From the sequence record MN850584.1: a stretch of 64,000 nt of DNA; one strand, given 5' to 3'. Below, one piece after another: positions 20,338 through 46,344 of the stretch; position 1 is the first letter of the stretch; every line of letters begins with the position of its first letter. The stretch is from Escherichia phage arall. The notes under the pieces are model-generated. The model searched no databases and had not been told where the DNA came from. It saw only the letters and a list, made by a program, of their open reading frames with translations. Position numbers and translations under genes: made by a program.

Positions 20338-23112
20338 TTAGTTTACCAGTTTATTTATATCTGGTAAAAGATTTATTTCACCTAAGAAATCACCTTCACC
20401 TTCCTCTAGCCAACTCTCATATGCTTGTGCATGATTATAGTTACCATCAAAAGAATCTGCAACAAATTTTTCTACAGTTTTTCGAGATGTGCCAGCGCCA
20501 AATACACCAAGTTTAATACCATTGATCGGTAAAGTGGTGCTTGTGGGTACTTTCTCTGTTGCAACACGGTTGATATCTATAATCTCCTGTACGGTTGTAT
20601 TCCATTGTAAGCATTTAACACAACGGGTGTGCGCTACATACAGTAGGTTTCGCTCTGCCTCTTCCAGTCCTACCCATTCACCAGTCTTTTTATCATAGTT
20701 GGAAGGAAAATCATTAGCAACAATAACCTGATCCCACTCCAAACCTTTAGACTTGTGTGCTGTAGTAAGTGTGACTTTTGCTGTAGGAGAATTTCTATGC
20801 GTTCTAAGTGTATGTGCTATAGTGTTTGCCTTACCAGAAACTACGATGTTTAACAAGCGTTTAGCATCTGGATCAGCCTCTGCACACTCAACAAATTCAT
20901 CCCAGTCTGCGTAAGGTAATACAGTTTCATGTTTTACTTTCTCAATATCTCCTCTCCGAAGAGCATTAACACTATCTACCATAGAGATAAAATCCCTGGT
21001 ATCTACGTTAATAATAATTTCTTCCCCATCTGCAATACGATCCATTGCCTCCATAAGCAAGGTTAAATTCTTGCGAAAGATGATAGTGTAAGGTTTTGTA
21101 TAGTCTACAACATCTGATTTGTAGCTACCTACTACAGTATCAAAGCCTTTACCAACCAAAGGGTGACGCAAAGGTTCTTTATCGCTTAAAATCATATTGG
21201 CAATGTTTGCCACTTTGGGGCCAAAACGGAAGCAAGCAGTTAATGGAAGCTCTGCCCCATACTTAGCTGTTTCAATCATCATATTAGAGCTACCTCTAAA
21301 TTGATAAATGCAGTTGTGGCTAAGAATTTCATTGCCAAAGAAGTTAGCAGTATCCTCTACTTCAATATCATAATAGATACCCTCACTATCTACAATGTCC
21401 ACAATCTCTTCTGCCGTTACAGTATCACCATCTTTTACCAACACAGACATGCCTTTAAACAAACCCGCTGCCGGAATTAAGTTATATTTGGCACTGTTCA
21501 CAGAGGACATGCATTCTTTTAAAGATGCAAACGGAACTATTTCAAGGATCTTTTGTGCAAAACTCAATGCTTCACGATAAGAATTGAAATATTTACGTAC
21601 ACGGTAACGACCTTCCAATTTAGCAGCACTTACGCTTACACCTGCTTTAATCAGTGAAGAATAGATCGGCATTTCACTTTCTGTCCACTCAAAACTAACT
21701 TGTGTTCCTTTACAACTTTGTGCTCGCAAAGTCACTGTTAGCATTTTTCTTTCATCTACTGCACAATTGATGCTGTGCCAGTGTGGATAAGCAAAATGAT
21801 AATCTTTATCCTCTAAAAGTTTAAAACCATTTTGTCCGAATTGTTCAAAGATGTTATTGATCCTTTCTTGATTAATGCCGCGTGAACTTGCTTCAAATAC
21901 ACAAGTAGGAATGCCATATTGTAAACTGTATGCCATTTCTTTTTCCATAGCAGCTTCACGGTTTTCAACAATATCCAACACCCATAATTTCTGTGCTTTT
22001 TCAGAACGTGTACGTTGCCCCAGTTTAGAAAAACCTTCTTTATCATCGAATTTGTTAGTGATCCCTACTCGGAAACCTAAATCTTTCCTCCACATTAGGT
22101 ATACCACCATCTGATCATCTTTCAGAACATAGGATGAAGCCCAAATACGATGGTTATGTGTCATATCTAAAGTTTTACCTGTGGCAGTAATAATATTCCT
22201 ACCTTTTGTACGTGTAGATAAAGTCTTATTTGTTACTTTTCTAAATGTAACTTTACCATTAGAGTAAGACTCTACCTTATCACCGATTTGCAGGTCTTTC
22301 ATTGTAACCTGACCATTCTCGGTATTAAGTACCGTGTTTTCCGACACACATTGGAATTCATCGCCCACTACCACAATTTGTTTTGCAGATTTAGCATTTC
22401 GCAGAATAGACAAGAATGCAGGGTTAACATCCTGGAATTCATCACCAAAAATAATATCATAACCAAGATCAGCACCAGACAATTCAAACAATTTTACATA
22501 GGTGTCATGCGTCATCAAAGTATCTGTATTAGGATCAATGCGCTCTCGCCACAATTGTTTTGCATACTTAACTACTTCTGTAATTAGTTTGTGTTCGTTA
22601 ATACCTTTTCTTTTAATATCTGCAAGATGTACACTAGGAAAATGTTTACGGCTGATAAAAGGATCATCCGAAAATTCAAACTTACCTACGGTTTGTTTGA
22701 TCATTAAACCAATCATAGCACGAGTTAACAGTGTTTTCCCTCGTTTATCAATAAGATTATTAATCTTAAATTTCTTTGCTATCTCGCTACCTGTACCTGC
22801 AACGTTAACATACTGTCCTTCTGGTCGTGACAGTTTTGCACGTAAACGATGATCCAGGAATTGATAGCAAATAGAATGCAATGTACGGCATTCTACATTT
22901 AGTGGCATCTTACGTCGTGCTTCTTCTGCCATGCTTTTATTGAAAGCTAAGTAAAGAATGCGATCTTCTGTACTGTTAGCCAGCAAATAAAGTGTTGACG
23001 TTTTGCCTGATCCAGATTTAGCTTGGATAGTTAAAAAGCGATGGTCTGGAAAAGCCTCCTTAATAGCTGTTTGCTCTTCTGTTGGAGTGAAGCTCAACTC
23101 TTTCTTAGCCAT
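20338..23112 (-). CDS. UvrD/Rep-like SF1 DNA helicase interrupted by an intein
   Basis: Walker A AKSGSGKTS, motif II FGDEFQD, motif III VGDEFQ|CIYQFRG split by insert, motif VI TTAHKSKGLEWD; likely ATG start at 23112. Confidence 0.8.
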   Translation of the reverse strand: MAKKELSFTPTEEQTAIKEAFPDHRFLTIQAKSGSGKTSTLYLLANSTEDRILYLAFNKSMAEEARRKMPLNVECRTLHSICYQFLDHRLRAKLSRPEGQYVNVAGTGSEIAKKFKINNLIDKRGKTLLTRAMIGLMIKQTVGKFEFSDDPFISRKHFPSVHLADIKRKGINEHKLITEVVKYAKQLWRERIDPNTDTLMTHDTYVKLFELSGADLGYDIIFGDEFQDVNPAFLSILRNAKSAKQIVVVGDEFQCVSENTVLNTENGQVTMKDLQIGDKVESYSNGKVTFRKVTNKTLSTRTKGRNIITATGKTLDMTHNHRIWASSYVLKDDQMVVYLMWRKDLGFRVGITNKFDDKEGFSKLGQRTRSEKAQKLWVLDIVENREAAMEKEMAYSLQYGIPTCVFEASSRGINQERINNIFEQFGQNGFKLLEDKDYHFAYPHWHSINCAVDERKMLTVTLRAQSCKGTQVSFEWTESEMPIYSSLIKAGVSVSAAKLEGRYRVRKYFNSYREALSFAQKILEIVPFASLKECMSSVNSAKYNLIPAAGLFKGMSVLVKDGDTVTAEEIVDIVDSEGIYYDIEVEDTANFFGNEILSHNCIYQFRGSSNMMIETAKYGAELPLTACFRFGPKVANIANMILSDKEPLRHPLVGKGFDTVVGSYKSDVVDYTKPYTIIFRKNLTLLMEAMDRIADGEEIIINVDTRDFISMVDSVNALRRGDIEKVKHETVLPYADWDEFVECAEADPDAKRLLNIVVSGKANTIAHTLRTHRNSPTAKVTLTTAHKSKGLEWDQVIVANDFPSNYDKKTGEWVGLEEAERNLLYVAHTRCVKCLQWNTTVQEIIDINRVATEKVPTSTTLPINGIKLGVFGAGTSRKTVEKFVADSFDGNYNHAQAYESWLEEGEGDFLGEINLLPDINKLVN
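21313..22350 (-). mobile_element. Intein (about 346 aa) within helicase motif III
   Basis: Insert starts with Cys (CVSENTVL...), has block B TxxH (MTHNH) and ends ...FFGNEILSHN followed by Cys; flanks rejoin as GDEFQ-CIYQFRG. Confidence 0.7.
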
Positions 23113-33912: not shown

Positions 33913-34130
33913 TATTTTGAAAATTTTTATTTTTATAAAAAGGGGTGTGGTTTCATGTACGGAAATCCACCCTCTGAATAATATATCCAGAGTAAATATT
34001 ATTCTGTACTCTGTTAATAAAGTATTTAATTTGTTTGTTGGACTATGGTATCTGATCTTTAAAAGGTATACTATCTCTTAACTACTACTTATAACAGAAC
34101 AGTAAAATCATTTTTATAAAAAGGATAAAA

Positions 34131-34330
34131 TTATTTAAAGTTTTTACAGATTTTTGGATACAAATTTTGAAAATGAAAAGTTCAAGTTTGGTCAAAATTA
34201 TTTAAAGTTTTTGTACGTATTTCTATCCAGATTTTGAAAATGAAAACTTCAATTTTTTAAAAATTCCCCAGTTTATTTAAAGTTTTTTTGCCTTTTTCCG
34301 TAGAAAAATCAAAAATGAAAAGTTCAATTT
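34131..34330. repeat. Three iteron-like direct repeats (period about 66-75 bp)
   Basis: Each unit has TTATTTAAAGTTTTT followed by (A)TTTTGAAAATGAAAAGTTCAA-like motif (34164-34185, 34231-34252, 34308-34327). Confidence 0.6.
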
Positions 34331-34350
34331 CGTGTTTTTATGGGTGTGCG

Positions 34351-34412
34351 GATGATAATCATTCTCACTAAGAGAATGAGAATCATTAGCAAATGAGAAT
34401 TTTTCTCATTTA
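34351..34412. promoter_or_regulatory. Nested palindromes including two Fur-box-like sites
   Basis: GATGATAATCATTCTCAC and GAGAATGAGAATCATTAGC resemble the Fur consensus GATAATGATAATCATTATC; plus perfect palindrome AAATGAGAA-TTT-TTCTCATTT. Confidence 0.4.
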
Positions 34413-34429
34413 GAGAATAACGCGCAGGG

Positions 34430-34641
34430 GTGGTGTTTGTCTCGCGCTCCCGTGTCCCCTCGCCATACAATAAGAATAGCATAACCAACAACAAAAGCAA
34501 GCGATTATTTTTATCTTTACATTTCTTTACAAATTTATTTTAGACGAGCTACCGGCGATCAACCTTCCAACCAGTGCCCCCTGGTATGTTAGCCCCGCCT
34601 TTACGCCGTGGGGGTGGCGTTTCCTCTTCTGTATGTAAAAC
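34430..34641 (-). ncRNA. Candidate structured non-coding RNA downstream of a minus-strand promoter
   Basis: GC-rich segment in AT-rich context, no ORF, directly downstream of TTGACA-17-TATACT; speculative. Confidence 0.2.
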
Positions 34642-35084: not shown

Positions 35085-35211
35085 TCATCTTGTCGAGGGG
35101 GGCGAGGCACAACGACAATAAACAAAAGGAGGGCGCAATGTAGGACGGGCAAAGGTGAGGATCTCCATAATCCACCGTCACAATAACATTACTTATAAAA
35201 GGTTGATAACG

Positions 35212-35307
35212 ATGATCAAGAAAGAAAACAGCTTGACGGTTGGAACGATTAACGCTATCATTCTAGCCGTTCCATTTTGGGTTGTAGTAGCGGTTATTAT
35301 CTTTTAA
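35212..35307 (+). CDS. Small hydrophobic peptide (31 aa)
   Basis: ATG 9 nt after AAGG; single TM-like segment; low confidence. Confidence 0.25.
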   Translation: MIKKENSLTVGTINAIILAVPFWVVVAVIIF

Positions 35308-43184: not shown

Positions 43185-43528
43185 TATTCTTTTTTCACAA
43201 TGGAAGCGACACGTAAAGAATAGGCGTAAAGGTGGCGTAAAACCATCTAAAACCGACTGTAACCGCTTAAACAAGGTAGGAATGATTAATCACCTTACCA
43301 GGATGAAAAAGCTGTTATAAAGCTATCTAGGGCGTTTAAAGCACATAGGAAATAATTTGCTTTTTATCTTGCCTTTTATCCTGCTTTTGATTATTATTAT
43401 GGAACGGGCGGCACCTGGGGACAGGGGAAGATAATCACCGGAAGATCCCGCTATATATTAATAGCTAATACCTATTAAACAACAAAACATCAAAGGTATA
43501 AACTATCAAATCTTTACAATTCTACCTA

Positions 43529-43557
43529 TTGACACCGGATCACGCTTACACTATTAT
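43529..43557 (+). promoter_or_regulatory. Sigma70-like promoter (TTGACA-17-TATTAT)
   Basis: No hairpin here. Confidence 0.5.
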
Positions 43558-43603
43558 TTATCACGTAGGGCAAATCATTTTAAACGGTAAACGAGGAATC
43601 ACC

Positions 43604-43987
43604 ATGAGCAATATCATCAACCTGGCAGCGACTGTAAACGGTAAAGATTTTAACGGCGCTGTAGATCGTGATCCTATGTGGTGCTTATCAGTGTTTAAAG
43701 GCGATCTGGTTGAAGTTAGAACAACCGAAGGTTATAGCGACGATTATAAATGCGAGATCCATTTACATAACTGGTACACGGGTAAAACTTATGCGCTGAA
43801 TCATGCGTTTATCGGGAAAATTGAATATCGCGAGATGATCGACGAAGAAACCGGGCAAGATTTTAGCGAAAACGTTTATATTCGTTCAGAAACATTAGCC
43901 GAACGTTTGATCGAGAAAATGAAAGCAAAAAATAAAATTAATTTAACTCATTGGATTGATATAACAAACGATCCAGCTTATCAGTAA
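43604..43987 (+). CDS. Hypothetical protein
   Basis: ATG at 43604 (track start 43529 is the TTG of the -35 hexamer). Confidence 0.55.
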   Translation: MSNIINLAATVNGKDFNGAVDRDPMWCLSVFKGDLVEVRTTEGYSDDYKCEIHLHNWYTGKTYALNHAFIGKIEYREMIDEETGQDFSENVYIRSETLAERLIEKMKAKNKINLTHWIDITNDPAYQ

Positions 43988-44001
43988 ATAACATTCCATA
44001 C

Positions 44002-44029
44002 AAGGGCGCACAAAGCGCCCTTTCTTTTT
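44002..44029 (+). terminator. Rho-independent terminator
   Basis: AAGGGCGC-ACAAA-GCGCCCTTTCTTTTT. Confidence 0.65.
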
Positions 44030-44233
44030 ACCTCAATAAAGATGATAGCTTTTACCTATCAAAAACGTTCACCGAAAAAAGTGAATAGATCGCGGTATCG
44101 AGCTAATCAAGGAGCAGATGAATAACCATACCATGAAGATCATAAGGCGCTTACAACGTGTTTTAGACCGCTTATTTTTAATTTCTTCATGCAACTATCT
44201 GGCAAAAACAGCCTTTTTCTTGTCTTTCCTCTT

Positions 44234-44250
44234 AAATGATAATCATTCTT
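44234..44250. promoter_or_regulatory. Fur-box-like site
   Basis: AAATGATAATCATTCTT; core AATGATAATCATT matches Fur consensus. Confidence 0.35.
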
Positions 44251-44290
44251 ATTTATAGCTGATTATTTATGCAATAAACTGCATAATTCA

Positions 44291-44308
44291 ATAATGATAA
44301 TCATTCTT
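44291..44308. promoter_or_regulatory. Fur-box-like site
   Basis: ATAATGATAATCATTCTT. Confidence 0.35.
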
Positions 44309-44329
44309 AACTTATGACCATCTAACCTA

Positions 44330-44640
44330 TAAAATAATAAGTTATCTAACTAAATTAAAACTAATTATCTTACTTTTATTTATAACTTACTGTTACTATC
44401 TCATTGATAACCTTATATTAAACAACAATAACTAATATAAATCATTACTAAGCTAACTATAATCTATCTAACCCTTAAAACTACAACTATAATCTATCGA
44501 ATTGTTGCACAAAGTAACTATTAAATTGTTAGTAACATTGCTAAATAATTAATATCCTATCTATTTATGATCTAATCTTTACCTTCCTATTTATTACCTA
44601 ACTAATCATTTCATACAGTAATCATTGCATACAGTAACTA
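44330..44640. repeat. G-depleted AT-rich repeat tract
   Basis: Plus strand almost lacks G; repeated CTAACT/AACTATAATCTATC (44454-44467, 44486-44499) and AATCATT-CATACAGTAA (44605-44640) motifs. Confidence 0.5.
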
Positions 44641-44676
44641 TGACAAGAAATATAATTCGCAAGCGTATCATTAGCA

Positions 44677-44845
44677 GCCTATGCCGGACACATAGGCGGC
44701 TAATATTAACGCAACTACACACCCCACATAATAACCATCGGTGATGGTTATTATTTGTGTTTATGTAGCTTGCAACAATTGCAAGCGCAACAATATACAT
44801 GGTATATTGTATTCCCTTACATTGTTGCGGTGCGTTAATATTAGC
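44677..44845. repeat. Cluster of perfect palindromes flanked by an 18-bp inverted repeat
   Basis: Hairpin GCCTATG-ccggaca-CATAGGC (44677-44697); flanking IR GGCTAATATTAACGCAAC / GTTGCG(gtgc)GTTAATATTAGC; internal palindromes ATAACCATC-ggt-GATGGTTAT (44731-44751), CTTGCAA-caa-TTGCAAG (44769-44785), CAATATAC-atg-GTATATTG (44791-44809). Confidence 0.6.
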
Positions 44846-45112
44846 TAATGTTTAGAACATTGGCTATAATATAAGCTGCATATAATAAGCTATACAATAA
44901 TAAACATGGTGAATAATGACCCTGATGATCATAATGCGCCACCCTCCAGGGGGCGCTATGTGTACACAAAAAATCTTTCTTGTCAAGAAAATATTAACAC
45001 TATTGCGCAAAATTATTTACAACTGAATAGATGATTTTTCATACTATTGCCCCTATAACATACCTCATTTGTTGAGCCTACTTTCTTAAAAGCGCAATAA
45101 ATCAGAATTATC

Positions 45113-45141
45113 TTGATTTTTAGGGCGTTTTATAGTATAGA
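45113..45141 (+). promoter_or_regulatory. Candidate promoter (TTGATT-17-TATAGA) with Fur box at predicted start site
   Basis: Weak hexamers; Fur-like 19-mer immediately downstream. Confidence 0.25.
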
Positions 45142-45147
45142 AAATAT

Positions 45148-45166
45148 GCAAATGATAATCATTATC
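45148..45166. promoter_or_regulatory. Fur-box-like operator (best match)
   Basis: GCAAATGATAATCATTATC vs Fur consensus GATAATGATAATCATTATC, 17/19. Confidence 0.45.
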
Positions 45167-45330
45167 AGCTATCTTCCACGGGTGGCACTATTTCACGCCA
45201 GATCATTTCATTTGGCAAGGTGTATATAGATGTTTAGACTTGCCAAGCCATTGATTTACTTAGAATTTATCTGTTTTGTTGTGAGTAGTACCTTTCTTGC
45301 TTAGAAAATAATCAAAAGTCTTATAAGTCA

Positions 45331-45365
45331 TTGAATGATAATGCAAATGATAATTATTCTCATTG
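45331..45365 (+). promoter_or_regulatory. Candidate promoter overlapped by tandem GATAAT Fur-like repeats
   Basis: TTGAATGATAATGCAAATGATAATTATTCTCATTG; -35-like TTGAAT, AT-rich -10 region. Confidence 0.35.
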
Positions 45366-45445
45366 ATATTTGAGGGGGACGGTCGGCAGAAATCGGGGGG
45401 CGCTGAAAATCGCGTTAAGCACCTCTCGCAAGCGAGCAGTGTTTT
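45366..45445 (+). ncRNA. Candidate small RNA (about 80 nt) between Fur-like operator and terminator-like hairpin
   Basis: GC-rich segment with no ORF, ending in CACCTCTCGC-AA-GCGAGCAGTG hairpin followed by TTTT (45420-45445); speculative. Confidence 0.25.
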
Positions 45446-45809
45446 GCGGCAAGTTATTGATATTATTGACTTTACGCTTATGAAAAGGGGGTGTGTCGAA
45501 ATAAATCGGGTATACCGGAAAATTTTTGTGGCATAGATATTTATTTGTCTATATTATGTACAAAGGGGTGTATTAAAAATAATAGGTATATATAGAATAA
45601 TTGATAGGGAAATCCTATACTAAATCCTTCATTAATGATGTTCCTATGTTGCTGTTCTTGTAACAGATGAAAAGACGCTATATGATGTGTGGCATGAGAC
45701 GTAAATTTATAAGATGCAAATAATGCTTGCATTGAATAGAAATGTCTATACACTGTGTTTCATAAGATATGCAATATCGCGCATAACAAACTACTAATGA
45801 GAGGTGTAA

Positions 45810-46127
45810 ATGAGAACCTTAGCTTTGTATATTGATCCTCACTCCATTCGAGAAATGCGAGATGTACAACAGGATTACGAATTCTACCCAGAAATTTGTG
45901 AACGCTATGAAACTATTCTTAGTTCTGTAGAAGATCCAGATACTAGTGAAACAGGTGCTTCCCACTTACTGTGGATGTTGAATGAAATTCAGGATGTGTG
46001 TAATGGTATGTCTGAAACCAAACACCATCGTTGGCTAGGCTATATTCAGGGTGTTATGGTTATGAAAAACCTTATTACAGTGAACGATGAACGTAATGCT
46101 ACACGCCCCGTCTTTAATGGAGCATAA
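45810..46127 (+). CDS. Hypothetical protein
   Basis: 105 aa ORF, ATG with GAGAGG SD. Confidence 0.55.
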   Translation: MRTLALYIDPHSIREMRDVQQDYEFYPEICERYETILSSVEDPDTSETGASHLLWMLNEIQDVCNGMSETKHHRWLGYIQGVMVMKNLITVNDERNATRPVFNGA

Positions 46128-46128
46128 C

Positions 46129-46344
46129 ATGAAAAGCATTCAGGTGTGTATTGAAAATAATTGTGGTTATCTGGGATTGACACACGTTGCTTTCCCTCTT
46201 ATGTTAGATGCCGATATCGCTTACAGCGGAGTTGCTTATGTGTCATTCAAGACAATGAGCCAAGTACCTGGCTGGAAGTGGGGAGTAGTTGATGTTGTTG
46301 AAGGAGAAGATTATGTTTTCCTTCCACACGAATATACTGTTTAA
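46129..46344 (+). CDS. Hypothetical protein
   Basis: ATG at 46129 with GGAG upstream. Confidence 0.5.
   Translation: MKSIQVCIENNCGYLGLTHVAFPLMLDADIAYSGVAYVSFKTMSQVPGWKWGVVDVVEGEDYVFLPHEYTV

What the first reader, a model, noticed from the sequence alone, without database searches (positions are those of the whole stretch)
44330..44640. Strongly G-depleted, repeat-rich AT tract
Over about 300 bp the plus strand contains almost no G and is built from reiterated CTAACT/AACTATAATCTATC and CATACAGTAA motifs. Such strand-asymmetric tracts can mark bent DNA, origin-associated unwinding elements or recognition arrays.
Basis: seen in the sequence. Interest (0 to 1): 0.4.

Follow-up and report, generated by a model that had tools for sequence, protein, structure and literature searches.

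The report
G-poor tract beside phage genome end
The G-depleted AT-rich tract is real and is a conserved part of the large non-coding region beside the terminal repeat of phi92-like coliphage genomes, probably an easily opened DNA element used in processing the genome end, though its function is untested.

Summary
Window 44330-44640 has 15 G in 311 nt, and the full tract 44297-44641 has 16 G against 61 C. It is the lowest-G and least stable duplex stretch of the 64 kb.

The window is a Justusliebigvirus (phi92-like) phage. The tract lies in a 1.8-kb ORF-free region, 435 bp upstream of the 343-bp direct terminal repeat (window 45075-45417), so just inside the right genome end.

The same order recurs in divergent Stephanstirmvirinae lineages. 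It runs: terminator, two Fur-box-like palindromes, a 218-367 nt G-poor tract (6-11% G), a multi-hairpin element with strong compensatory covariation, then the repeat with two more Fur boxes. The tract's sequence diverges, but its composition, an AACRATAAC core and AWCTA enrichment persist.

Phased A-tract bending, IHF or DnaA sites, coding potential and Rfam matches were all tested and not found.

Best reading (about 0.4): a cis-acting DNA unwinding or recognition element of the terminus module, comparable to the T7 phiOR, SRL and SRR regions. Rivals are a Rho-loading or insulator RNA, part of a non-coding RNA, or a mutation-biased spacer.

Function is inferred, not shown. Interest is moderate, and the neighbouring Fur boxes and the covarying element are the more surprising features.

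The parts
44002..44030 (+). Intrinsic terminator of the last right-end operon (after the gp248 / T4 gp30.8-like gene, 43604-43987)
   Evidence: An 8-bp stem with 6 G-C pairs followed by TCTTTTT. The GGGCGCAC(A/C)AAGCGCCC core is invariant in all six lineages aligned.
44237..44251 (.). Fur-box-like palindrome 1 (TGATAATcATTCTTA)
   Evidence: Two mismatches to the 7-1-7 consensus TGATAATnATTATCA. A box is present at this position in all lineages.
44269..44287 (+). Conserved palindrome ATGCA-N6-TGCAT, ending in TGCATAAT (a -10-like sequence), between the two boxes
   Evidence: TGCATAA is invariant in the six-lineage alignment. The -35 match is poor (3/6), so promoter status is unproven.
44295..44309 (.). 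Fur-box-like palindrome 2 (TGATAATcATTCTTA), 58 nt after box 1
44297..44641 (+). The G-poor, AT-rich tract (the finding): 345 nt with G 4.6% and C 17.7% on the + strand
   Evidence: Equivalent tracts of 218-367 nt with 6-11% G occur in FKP3, phAPEC8, PsgM04F and two metagenome relatives.
44424..44432 (+). AACAATAAC core, the only block of the tract kept in every lineage
   Evidence: AAC[AG]ATAAC present in 6 of 6 lineages; expected about 0.03 per tract
44455..44501 (+). Two copies of AACTATAATCTATC(T/G)AA, 30 nt apart
   Evidence: repeat family D11, 94% identity
44603..44634 (+). 16-nt tandem repeat TAATCATT[T/G]CATACAG x2, with variable copy number
   Evidence: D12. There are 1-3 copies among 13 Justusliebigvirus sequences. 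BLAST match lengths step by 16 nt (485, 501, 517, 533). It is annotated as repeat_region in phages inny and muut.
44677..44697 (.). Hairpin A of the structured element (GCCTATG-N7-CATAGGC)
   Evidence: 7 pairs, 3 of them with compensatory double changes, 100% paired in 16 sequences
44699..44845 (.). Multi-hairpin element: a 15-bp closing stem (44699-44713 with 44831-44845) enclosing hairpins C (44725-44757), D (44768-44786) and E (44786-44829)
   Evidence: Folding z-scores are -6.6 (+ RNA), -8.9 (- RNA) and -9.0 (DNA). 97.9% of cells are paired. 13 pairs and 50 cells carry double changes against 1 one-sided change, and 0 of 500 shuffles reach this. No Rfam match.
45066..45074 (+). CATTTGTTG motif abutting the left boundary of the terminal repeat; 1-4 tandem copies in relatives
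   Evidence: phage ECGD1 has 4 copies; boundary mapped
45075..45417 (.). Direct terminal repeat (single copy in this collapsed assembly). The boundaries TTGTTG|AGCCTAC and CGCGTTA|AGCACCT share GTTR|AGC.
   Evidence: The annotated 343-bp DTR of phi92 and the 342-bp DTR determined by PhageTerm for BME3 (PMC12210895) map to the same window coordinates.
45153..45167 (.). Fur-box-like palindrome 3, a perfect TGATAATcATTATCA, inside the DTR
   Evidence: 0 mismatches
45348..45362 (.). Fur-box-like palindrome 4 (TGATAATtATTCTCA), inside the DTR
   Evidence: 1 mismatch. The sequence is identical in phAPEC8, and FKP3 has TGAGAATgATTCTCA.

Best explanation
The tract is a cis-acting DNA element of the genome-terminus module of a phage that packages with direct terminal repeats.

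What is shown. It is a roughly 345-bp stretch, the most easily melted DNA of the region. One strand lacks G and the other lacks C, so neither single strand can fold back on itself. It lies about 435 bp inside the right genome end. Upstream are two protein-binding palindromes that match the Fur box. Downstream is an inverted-repeat element capable of forming hairpins or a cruciform. The tract carries a one-directional scatter of A[AT]CTA and TAAC motifs and a conserved AACAATAAC core.

What is inferred. Under negative supercoiling the tract opens first. Opening would help the adjacent inverted repeats to extrude, and would offer single-stranded or motif-bearing DNA on which replication or terminase proteins assemble. 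That assembly would start the local DNA synthesis or processing that duplicates the terminal repeat, and/or start packaging from the right end. The analogy is with the phiOR / pacB / short-repeat region next to the T7 terminal repeat.

Whether the process served is replication initiation or packaging cannot be decided from sequence.
For: Location next to the DTR is fixed by two independent determinations of the ends.

The tract has the lowest G and the lowest duplex stability of the 64 kb.

The same module order and a G-poor tract (6-11% G, with C kept at 13-24%) recur in FKP3, phAPEC8, PsgM04F and metagenome lineages, although the tract sequence is mostly unalignable.

Short motifs and one core are conserved and enriched in every lineage.

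The adjacent element covaries almost exclusively through Watson-Crick double changes (50 cells against 1 G-U). This fits DNA hairpins at least as well as RNA.

No ORF, no Rfam family and no specific RNA structure is found in the tract.

No convincing conserved sigma-70 promoter feeds it, and a strong terminator precedes it.

The CCTAAAG array of T7, next to its terminal repeat, is likewise G-poor on one strand (G 10.8%, C 27.9%). In T7, packaging is started at the right side of the concatemer junction (PMC3276506).
Against: Nothing here shows DNA opening, protein binding, replication initiation or a packaging defect.

There is no phased bending and no DnaA or IHF consensus site.

Tract length (218-367 nt) and the copy number of the 16-nt repeat vary freely.

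Within-genus polymorphism shows no detectable selection against new G's: A>G is 0.082 per A site in the tract, against 0.043 and 0.070 in the flanks.

Loss of G with C retained is a single-strand property. It is explained just as naturally at the RNA level (a rut-like site).

A second very AT-rich non-coding region, with direct repeats and Fur-like boxes at 33913-34420, looks more like a classical origin and is not strand-asymmetric.
Confidence: 0.4

Rival explanations
1. RNA-level insulator. The tract is transcribed in the + sense, either by read-through from the right-end operon or from a weak promoter between the Fur-like boxes. It gives an unstructured RNA that contains C but little G and loads Rho (a long rut site). 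Termination there would keep transcripts from crossing the terminal repeat into the next genome's early genes on concatemers.
For: C/G is 3.8 over 345 nt. The + strand RNA is essentially unstructured (-27.4 kcal/mol for 361 nt). In every lineage the tract directly follows the last operon's terminator. In the rV5-like phage the equivalent stretch after the terminator is C-rich and G-poor without being very AT-rich (C 46-54 and G 21-30 per 200 nt). The sign of the GC skew is opposite to that of coding DNA. G-specific depletion is a single-strand property.
Against: The preceding intrinsic terminator is strong and invariant, so little read-through is expected. The TGCATAAT element has a poor -35 in all lineages. 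300 nt or more is far longer than a rut site needs. C is only 18% here. Other parts of the window have a larger C-minus-G excess. It does not explain the conserved core, the motifs or the adjacent covarying element.
Confidence: 0.22
2. The tract and the adjacent hairpin element are one non-coding RNA, on either strand: an unstructured tail joined to a structured domain. Its expression might be controlled by Fur.
For: The element has strong covariation and very low folding energy on both strands. Mismatches are mostly C.A on the + strand, which would be G.U on the - strand (about 5 events against 2). Fur-like operators flank a -10-like TGCATAAT.
Against: There are 50 double Watson-Crick changes against one G-U, which is unusual for an RNA family. 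The strand test is not significant. No promoter or terminator conserved across lineages delimits such an RNA on either strand. There is no Rfam match. The tract itself has no structure beyond what its composition gives (z = 0.17 and 1.14).
Confidence: 0.13
3. A functionless spacer. Its composition would reflect a local strand-biased mutation pressure, such as cytosine deamination of a frequently single-stranded minus strand, rather than selection.
For: The sequence turns over almost completely between lineages, the length varies, and the 16-nt repeat expands and contracts. Polymorphism shows no extra avoidance of G. In three of four lineages the minus strand is T-rich as well as C-poor.
Against: The bias is confined to this segment. 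Neighbouring non-coding stretches that are equally unconserved are compositionally normal. The tract keeps the same position between the same conserved elements in all lineages. It also keeps a core motif and a 2.5-3.4x motif enrichment. A local mutation bias would itself imply that the DNA here is often single-stranded.
Confidence: 0.15

Closest known systems
Bacteriophage T7 short-repeat arrays (SRL/SRR) and the phiOR region flanking the 160-bp terminal repeat
   Same: Both are non-coding DNA close to a direct terminal repeat. Both are built from a short C-containing motif in one orientation: CCTAAAG in T7, A[AT]CTA / CTAAC here. In T7, nt 161-400 has G 10.8% and C 27.9% on the top strand. 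In T7 a promoter/origin (phiOR) lies before the right repeat, and packaging starts at the right side of the concatemer junction (PMC3276506). The function of the T7 arrays is, to my knowledge, still not settled.
   Different: The T7 arrays abut the repeat and occur on both sides of it. They use a regular 7-mer at 12-15-bp spacing and are not AT-rich. The tract here is on one side only, 435 bp from the repeat, 78% AT, far less regular, and separated from the repeat by a covarying hairpin element. No sequence homology was seen.
DNA unwinding elements of promoter-plus-AT-rich-region origins (T7 primary origin, T4 oriF/oriG, lambda ori AT-rich region)
   Same: It is the least stable duplex of the region, it is strand-asymmetric, and it lies directly beside repeated palindromic protein-binding sites. 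rV5-like phages, and presumably this phage, have a T7-type replisome (PMC3606486).
   Different: It is 345 bp rather than about 40-100 bp. No initiator protein is known. The adjacent palindromes match the host Fur box, not a known initiator site. No initiation data exist.
Rho utilisation (rut) sites
   Same: The + strand would give unstructured RNA with C in excess of G, downstream of the last translated gene.
   Different: It is very AT-rich with only 18% C, it is much longer than a rut site, it lies behind a strong intrinsic terminator, and transcription through it is unproven.
The unexplained 'non-coding' box on the rV5 genome map (Kropinski et al. 2013, PMC3606486)
   Same: It is a region of more than 2 kb without ORFs at the same place in the gene order. 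In the rV5-like phage HeinrichReichert the region has a terminator, a stretch with C in excess of G, a hairpin plus an 18-bp closing stem, and Fur-like boxes.
   Different: G depletion there is mild (10-15%) and the stretch is not AT-rich. The covariance model of the hairpin element scores only 12.4 bits there (E = 0.6), so homology is not shown.

Membership tests
Intrinsically bent (phased A-tract) DNA | A/T runs phased at about 10-11 bp | tested here: not met
   Power at 10.5 bp is 0.18 for AA/TT and 0.09 for A3+/T3+, against null 95th percentiles of 1.67 and 0.85.
Origin DNA unwinding element | Local minimum of duplex stability | tested here: met
   It is the least stable 100-, 200- and 300-bp window of the 64 kb: -1.06 kcal/mol per step against a mean of -1.27, sd 0.043.
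Origin DNA unwinding element | Adjacent array of initiator-binding repeats | tested here: inconclusive
   Two palindromes lie immediately upstream. They match the host Fur box, and no initiator is known to bind them.
Origin DNA unwinding element | DnaA boxes or IHF sites, as in host-dependent origins | tested here: not met
   Only one-mismatch matches are found, as expected in AT-rich DNA.
Origin DNA unwinding element | Replication starts there | not testable with these tools
   This needs marker-frequency analysis, 2D gels or nascent-strand mapping.
T7-type terminal short-repeat arrays / pac region | Non-coding array close to the direct terminal repeat | tested here: met
   The tract ends 435 bp before the DTR at 45075-45417.
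T7-type terminal short-repeat arrays / pac region | Regularly reiterated short motif in one orientation, with a G-poor strand | tested here: inconclusive
   A[AT]CTA is 16 against 4.7 expected and all copies are on one strand, but the spacing is irregular. The T7 SRL is G-poor as well.
T7-type terminal short-repeat arrays / pac region | Arrays on both sides of the repeat | tested here: not met
   The DNA after the repeat (45418-45800) is not G-poor and carries a different motif, GGGGTGT..AAATAAT.
T7-type terminal short-repeat arrays / pac region | Required for terminase binding or concatemer processing | not testable with these tools
   This needs genetics or TerS binding assays.
Rho utilisation site | Unstructured RNA with C in excess of G | tested here: met
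   C 61 against G 16. MFE is -27.4 kcal/mol for 361 nt, no different from shuffles.
Rho utilisation site | Transcribed and untranslated, with Rho-dependent 3' ends | not testable with these tools
   A strong terminator lies upstream and no convincing promoter is present, so transcription is doubtful.
Known RNA families (Rfam 15) | Covariance-model match | tested here: not met
   There are no matches better than E = 0.8 in 43500-46300, and both that are listed fall far below gathering score.
Protein-coding sequence | Open reading frame | tested here: not met
   There are 9-21 stop codons per frame. The longest open stretch is 44 codons, and no listed ORF of 40 aa or more lies inside the tract.
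Fur operator (applies to the flanking palindromes, not the tract) | Match to the 7-1-7 consensus TGATAATnATTATCA | tested here: met
   Eight sites have 2 or fewer mismatches, against 0.98 +/- 1.15 expected. One is perfect.
Fur operator (applies to the flanking palindromes, not the tract) | The tract itself is an extended array of GATAAT-type hexamers | tested here: not met
   13 hexamers with 1 or fewer mismatches, against about 10 expected (P = 0.22).
Fur operator (applies to the flanking palindromes, not the tract) | Fur protein binds | not testable with these tools
   This needs EMSA, a FURTA assay or ChIP.

The most novel reading that the evidence does not exclude
The terminus region may be a module gated by host iron status. 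Consensus Fur boxes bracket the G-less tract, sit inside the terminal repeat, and form a triple cluster in a second non-coding region. Two readings follow. In the first, Fe-Fur occupancy controls opening or transcription of the tract, and through it replication or packaging at the genome end. In the second, the eight or more boxes per genome, amplified by replication, titrate Fur and derepress host iron uptake for the phage's benefit. Either would be a use of Fur by a virulent phage that I could not find described.
Probability: 0.12. Interest if true: 0.8.

Novelty: new variant of a known kind. Interest (0 to 1): 0.5.

Why it matters
Phi92-, phAPEC8- and rV5-like phages are broad-host-range candidates for therapy, yet their replication origin, pac signals and early regulation are unknown. 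The rV5 genome paper simply draws this region as 'non-coding'.

Placing the tract in a conserved, ordered module at the physical genome end gives concrete cis-elements to mutate. The module runs: terminator, Fur-like boxes, G-poor unwinding tract, covarying hairpin element, cut-site motif, terminal repeat.

It would also matter for engineering these phages, since insertions or deletions here may be lethal. It could link phage development to host iron status.

The parallel with the still-unexplained T7 short-repeat arrays suggests a general feature of phages with direct terminal repeats.

Tried and rejected
- Curvature. There is no 10.5-bp phasing, so the bent-DNA reading was rejected.
- Tract as a Fur 'sink' of GATAAT hexamers. 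Density is not above expectation, so this was rejected.
- IHF and DnaA sites. None reaches consensus.
- Coding potential. None was found. The 64-aa minus-strand ORF 44606-44800 lies over the hairpin element and is probably spurious.
- Rfam. No family matched.
- Selection against G in within-genus polymorphism. The A>G to T>C ratio in the tract (0.63) is like that of the flanks (0.53, 0.73), so no signal was seen.
- Which strand of the hairpin element folds. The count of C.A against G.U mismatches is about 5 to 2, which is not significant.
- A mirrored 'Fur boxes then G-poor tract' module at 33913-34420. That region is AT-rich but symmetric (C 46, G 55 of 428), so this was rejected.
- Homology of the hairpin element to the rV5-like element. 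The covariance model scores 12.4 bits (E = 0.6), so homology is unproven.
- A conserved sigma-70 promoter feeding the tract. Only a -10-like TGCATAAT with a poor -35 was found.
- Literature. Searches for Fur boxes, transcriptomes or a description of this region in these phages found nothing relevant. The phi92 genome paper is not held.
- Wider sequence scans. IMG/VR and metagenome pattern scans added only 11 relatives.

Full report
**What the window is.** A 3-kb query around the finding matches 123 phage records. The best are 94-96% identical Justusliebigvirus genomes (phi92-like, Stephanstirmvirinae; about 147 kb). No tRNA lies in the window.

**The observation.** Window 44330-44640 contains A124, T119, C53 and G15. 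Across the window, 311-nt windows average 56.3 G (sd 12.2). This is the only place with 25 G or fewer; the next lowest clusters have 26-30. The natural limits of the tract are 44297-44641 (345 nt; A136 C61 G16 T132). With 77 G+C, 16 or fewer G has binomial P = 1.2e-7. GC skew falls to -0.61 here, whereas the flanking genes, all on the + strand, run at +0.1 to +0.3. The tract is also the most AT-rich stretch and the least stable duplex of the 64 kb at every window size tried.

'Repeat-rich' needs a qualification. Overall k-mer recurrence is only marginally above a first-order Markov model of this three-letter composition (k=7, P=0.058). A few words are clearly over-represented: A[AT]CTA 16 against 4.7, ATCATT 4 against 0.25, TAACTA 6 against 1.4.

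**Genomic context.** The tract lies in a 1.82-kb ORF-free region (43988-45809). Upstream is a T4 gp30.8-like gene (phi92 gp248) and downstream is the first left-end gene. The phi92 record carries an annotated 343-bp direct terminal repeat (DTR) at both ends. Phage BME3 has a 342-bp DTR determined with PhageTerm (PMC12210895). Both map to the same window coordinates, 45075-45417.

The window is therefore an assembly in which the repeat is collapsed. The tract lies 435 bp inside the right genome end. The two repeat boundaries share a motif, TTGTTG|AGCCTAC and CGCGTTA|AGCACCT. A CTATTTGTTG unit just before the left boundary varies from 1 to 4 copies among relatives.

**Anatomy of the non-coding region on the + strand.**
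- A strong terminator at 44002-44030.
- Two palindromes TGATAATcATTCTTA at 44237 and 44295, flanking a conserved ATGCA-N6-TGCATAAT.
- The G-poor tract.
- The 16-nt tandem repeat at its 3' end.
- A small hairpin at 44677-44697.
- A 147-nt element at 44699-44845, closed by a perfect 15-bp stem and holding three hairpins.
- About 230 nt of variable sequence.
- The DTR, with two further palindromes, one of them a perfect TGATAATcATTATCA.

**Conservation.** Within the genus, 55 records carry the tract at 90-97% identity. Match lengths step by 16 nt because of the tandem repeat, which has 1-3 copies in my sample.

Divergent lineages were reached through the hairpin element and through pattern scans. 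They are Klebsiella phages FKP3 and phi1_175008, Phapecoctavirus (phAPEC8, ESCO5, anhysbys), PsgM04F and several metagenome contigs. All show the same order of parts.

Between box 2 and hairpin A the sequence is largely unalignable and the length is 218-367 nt. G stays at 6-11% while C stays at 13-24%. An AACRATAAC core is present in all six lineages, and A[AT]CTA is 2.5-3.4 times enriched in each. So composition, position and a few short words are conserved, but the long repeats are not.

In an rV5-like Vequintavirus the equivalent region of more than 2 kb has a terminator, a milder stretch with C in excess of G, a hairpin plus an 18-bp closing stem, and Fur-like boxes. My covariance model of the hairpin element does not score there (12.4 bits, E = 0.6). 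The rV5 genome paper shows this region only as a 'non-coding' box (PMC3606486).

**The neighbouring hairpin element.** RNAalifold on 16 distinct sequences gives 39 pairs, 13 of them with compensatory double changes. On the named structure 97.9% of cells are paired. Fifty cells carry changes on both sides against one G-U. None of 500 shuffles and no slid register comes close. Folding z-scores are -6.6 (+ RNA), -8.9 (- RNA) and -9.0 (DNA).

Mismatches lean towards C.A on the + strand, which would be G.U on the - strand. The count is only about five events against two, so the folded strand is undecided. The near-absence of wobble pairs fits DNA hairpins at least as well as RNA. Rfam has no match.

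- No 10.5-bp phasing of A/T runs is present, so intrinsic bending is unsupported.
- No DnaA or IHF consensus site is present.
- The tract has no ORF.
- The tract has no RNA structure beyond what its composition gives (z = 0.17 and 1.14).
- Fur-type hexamers are not enriched inside the tract.
- Within-genus polymorphism shows no extra avoidance of new G's.
- A second very AT-rich non-coding region at 33913-34420 has three 63-nt direct repeats and three Fur-like boxes, but it is symmetric in G and C. The strand asymmetry is therefore specific to the terminal tract.

**Comparison with T7, checked on the sequence.** The array of CCTAAAG repeats right after the left terminal repeat of T7 (nt 161-400) is G-poor on the top strand (G 10.8%, C 27.9%). 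A looser array precedes the right repeat, downstream of the promoter phiOR. In T7, RNA polymerase pausing at the right side of the concatemer junction starts maturation and packaging (PMC3276506). From my own knowledge (Dunn and Studier 1983), these arrays have no settled function.

**Interpretation.** Four things are shown: an extreme, strand-specific composition; minimal duplex stability; a fixed place in a conserved module beside the DTR; and conserved short motifs. The mechanism is inferred.

I favour a DNA-level cis-element (about 0.4). It would be an easily opened stretch whose separated strands cannot fold back. Opening would aid extrusion of the adjacent inverted repeats and loading of replication or terminase proteins near the end that is probably packaged first. 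That in turn would serve repeat duplication and/or packaging initiation.

A Rho-loading or insulator RNA (about 0.22) explains the G-specific bias equally well, but it needs transcription past a strong terminator. A single ncRNA made of tract plus element (about 0.13) lacks a conserved promoter and terminator, and lacks wobble pairs. A mutation-biased spacer (about 0.15) fits the sequence turnover. It does not fit the sharply local bias, the fixed position or the conserved motifs.

**Novelty and score.** I found no description of this tract, of the Fur-like boxes, or of the hairpin element in these phages. The kind of feature, a strand-asymmetric short-motif array beside a phage terminal repeat, is known from T7. 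This is therefore a new variant of a known but unexplained kind.

The tract alone is of moderate interest. The consensus Fur boxes at a virulent phage's genome end (8 sites with 2 or fewer mismatches against 0.98 expected) and the covarying element raise the value of the locus. Overall interest is 0.5.

Noticed in passing
window 44237-44251, 44295-44309, 45153-45167, 45348-45362; also 34353-34367, 34377-34391, 34394-34408, 21797-21811, 35204-35218: Palindromes match the E. coli Fur-box 7-1-7 consensus TGATAATnATTATCA. Eight have 2 or fewer mismatches against 0.98 expected, and one is perfect. They cluster in non-coding DNA: two before the tract, two inside the terminal repeat, three in a second non-coding region. 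Equivalent boxes, including the GAGAAT variant, occur at the same places in FKP3, phAPEC8, metagenome relatives and an rV5-like phage. I found no paper describing them.
   Followed up: partly
window 44677-44845: A roughly 170-nt multi-hairpin element (hairpin A, a 15-bp closing stem, hairpins C, D and E) has very strong compensatory covariation across Stephanstirmvirinae and no Rfam match. It has 50 double changes against one G-U, so it may act as DNA hairpins or a cruciform rather than as RNA.
   Followed up: yes
window 44740-44742 (loop of hairpin C), compared with L001-L009: The window has AACCATC-GGT-GATGGTT where most relatives have AACCATC-ACC-GATAGTT. This is the reverse complement of the hairpin, as if the hairpin had flipped.
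   Followed up: no
window 45066-45095 and 45411-45430: The two boundaries of the terminal repeat share GTTR|AGC(A/C)... (TTGTTG|AGCCTACTTTCT and CGCGTTA|AGCACCTCTCGC), a likely terminase cut-site motif. The (C)TATTTGTTG unit before the left boundary is present in 1-4 tandem copies in relatives. Other lineages repeat TGTTGAGC(C)AC up to 3 times.
   Followed up: partly
window 33913-34520: A second large non-coding region lies after gp223. It is the second least stable DNA of the window and has three direct repeats of about 63 nt (34127-34331) followed by three Fur-like boxes. It is not strand-asymmetric and looks like a classical iteron-plus-AT-rich origin or control region.
   Followed up: partly
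window 45488-45506, 45565-45583, 46143-46161, and 33940-33950: A repeated motif (A)AAGGGGTGT..AAATAAT..GGTATA occurs in the left-end non-coding DNA and may mark early promoters. Its G-run is complementary to the conserved unpaired ACACACCCC of the hairpin element (44715-44725). The two appear to change together in FKP3 (CCACCCC / GGGGTGG). This was seen by eye and not tested statistically.
   Followed up: no
window 44118-44258: A 46-codon ORF is preceded by AGGAG (44110-44114) and ends inside Fur-like box 1. It is annotated as a CDS in phage Antha but is absent from the phAPEC8 and FKP3 lineages. It is probably not a conserved gene.
   Followed up: partly
L061 8020-9480 (Escherichia phage HeinrichReichert, Vequintavirus): The non-coding region of rV5-like phages, more than 2 kb long, has an analogous layout: a terminator, a stretch with C in excess of G (G 21-30 per 200), a hairpin plus an 18-bp closing stem enclosing an AACCATC hairpin, and Fur-like boxes. 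The covariance model does not detect it.
   Followed up: partly
L064 161-400 (phage T7 left end): The CCTAAAG short-repeat array of T7, next to the terminal repeat, is itself G-poor on the top strand (G 26, C 67 of 240). Strand-specific G depletion beside terminal repeats may therefore be more general.
   Followed up: partly
L011 4457-4770 and 4961-5274 (Klebsiella phage FKP3, PP895363.1): The terminal-repeat sequence appears twice about 500 nt apart at the start of this record. This is either an assembly artefact of the DTR or a real local duplication.
   Followed up: no
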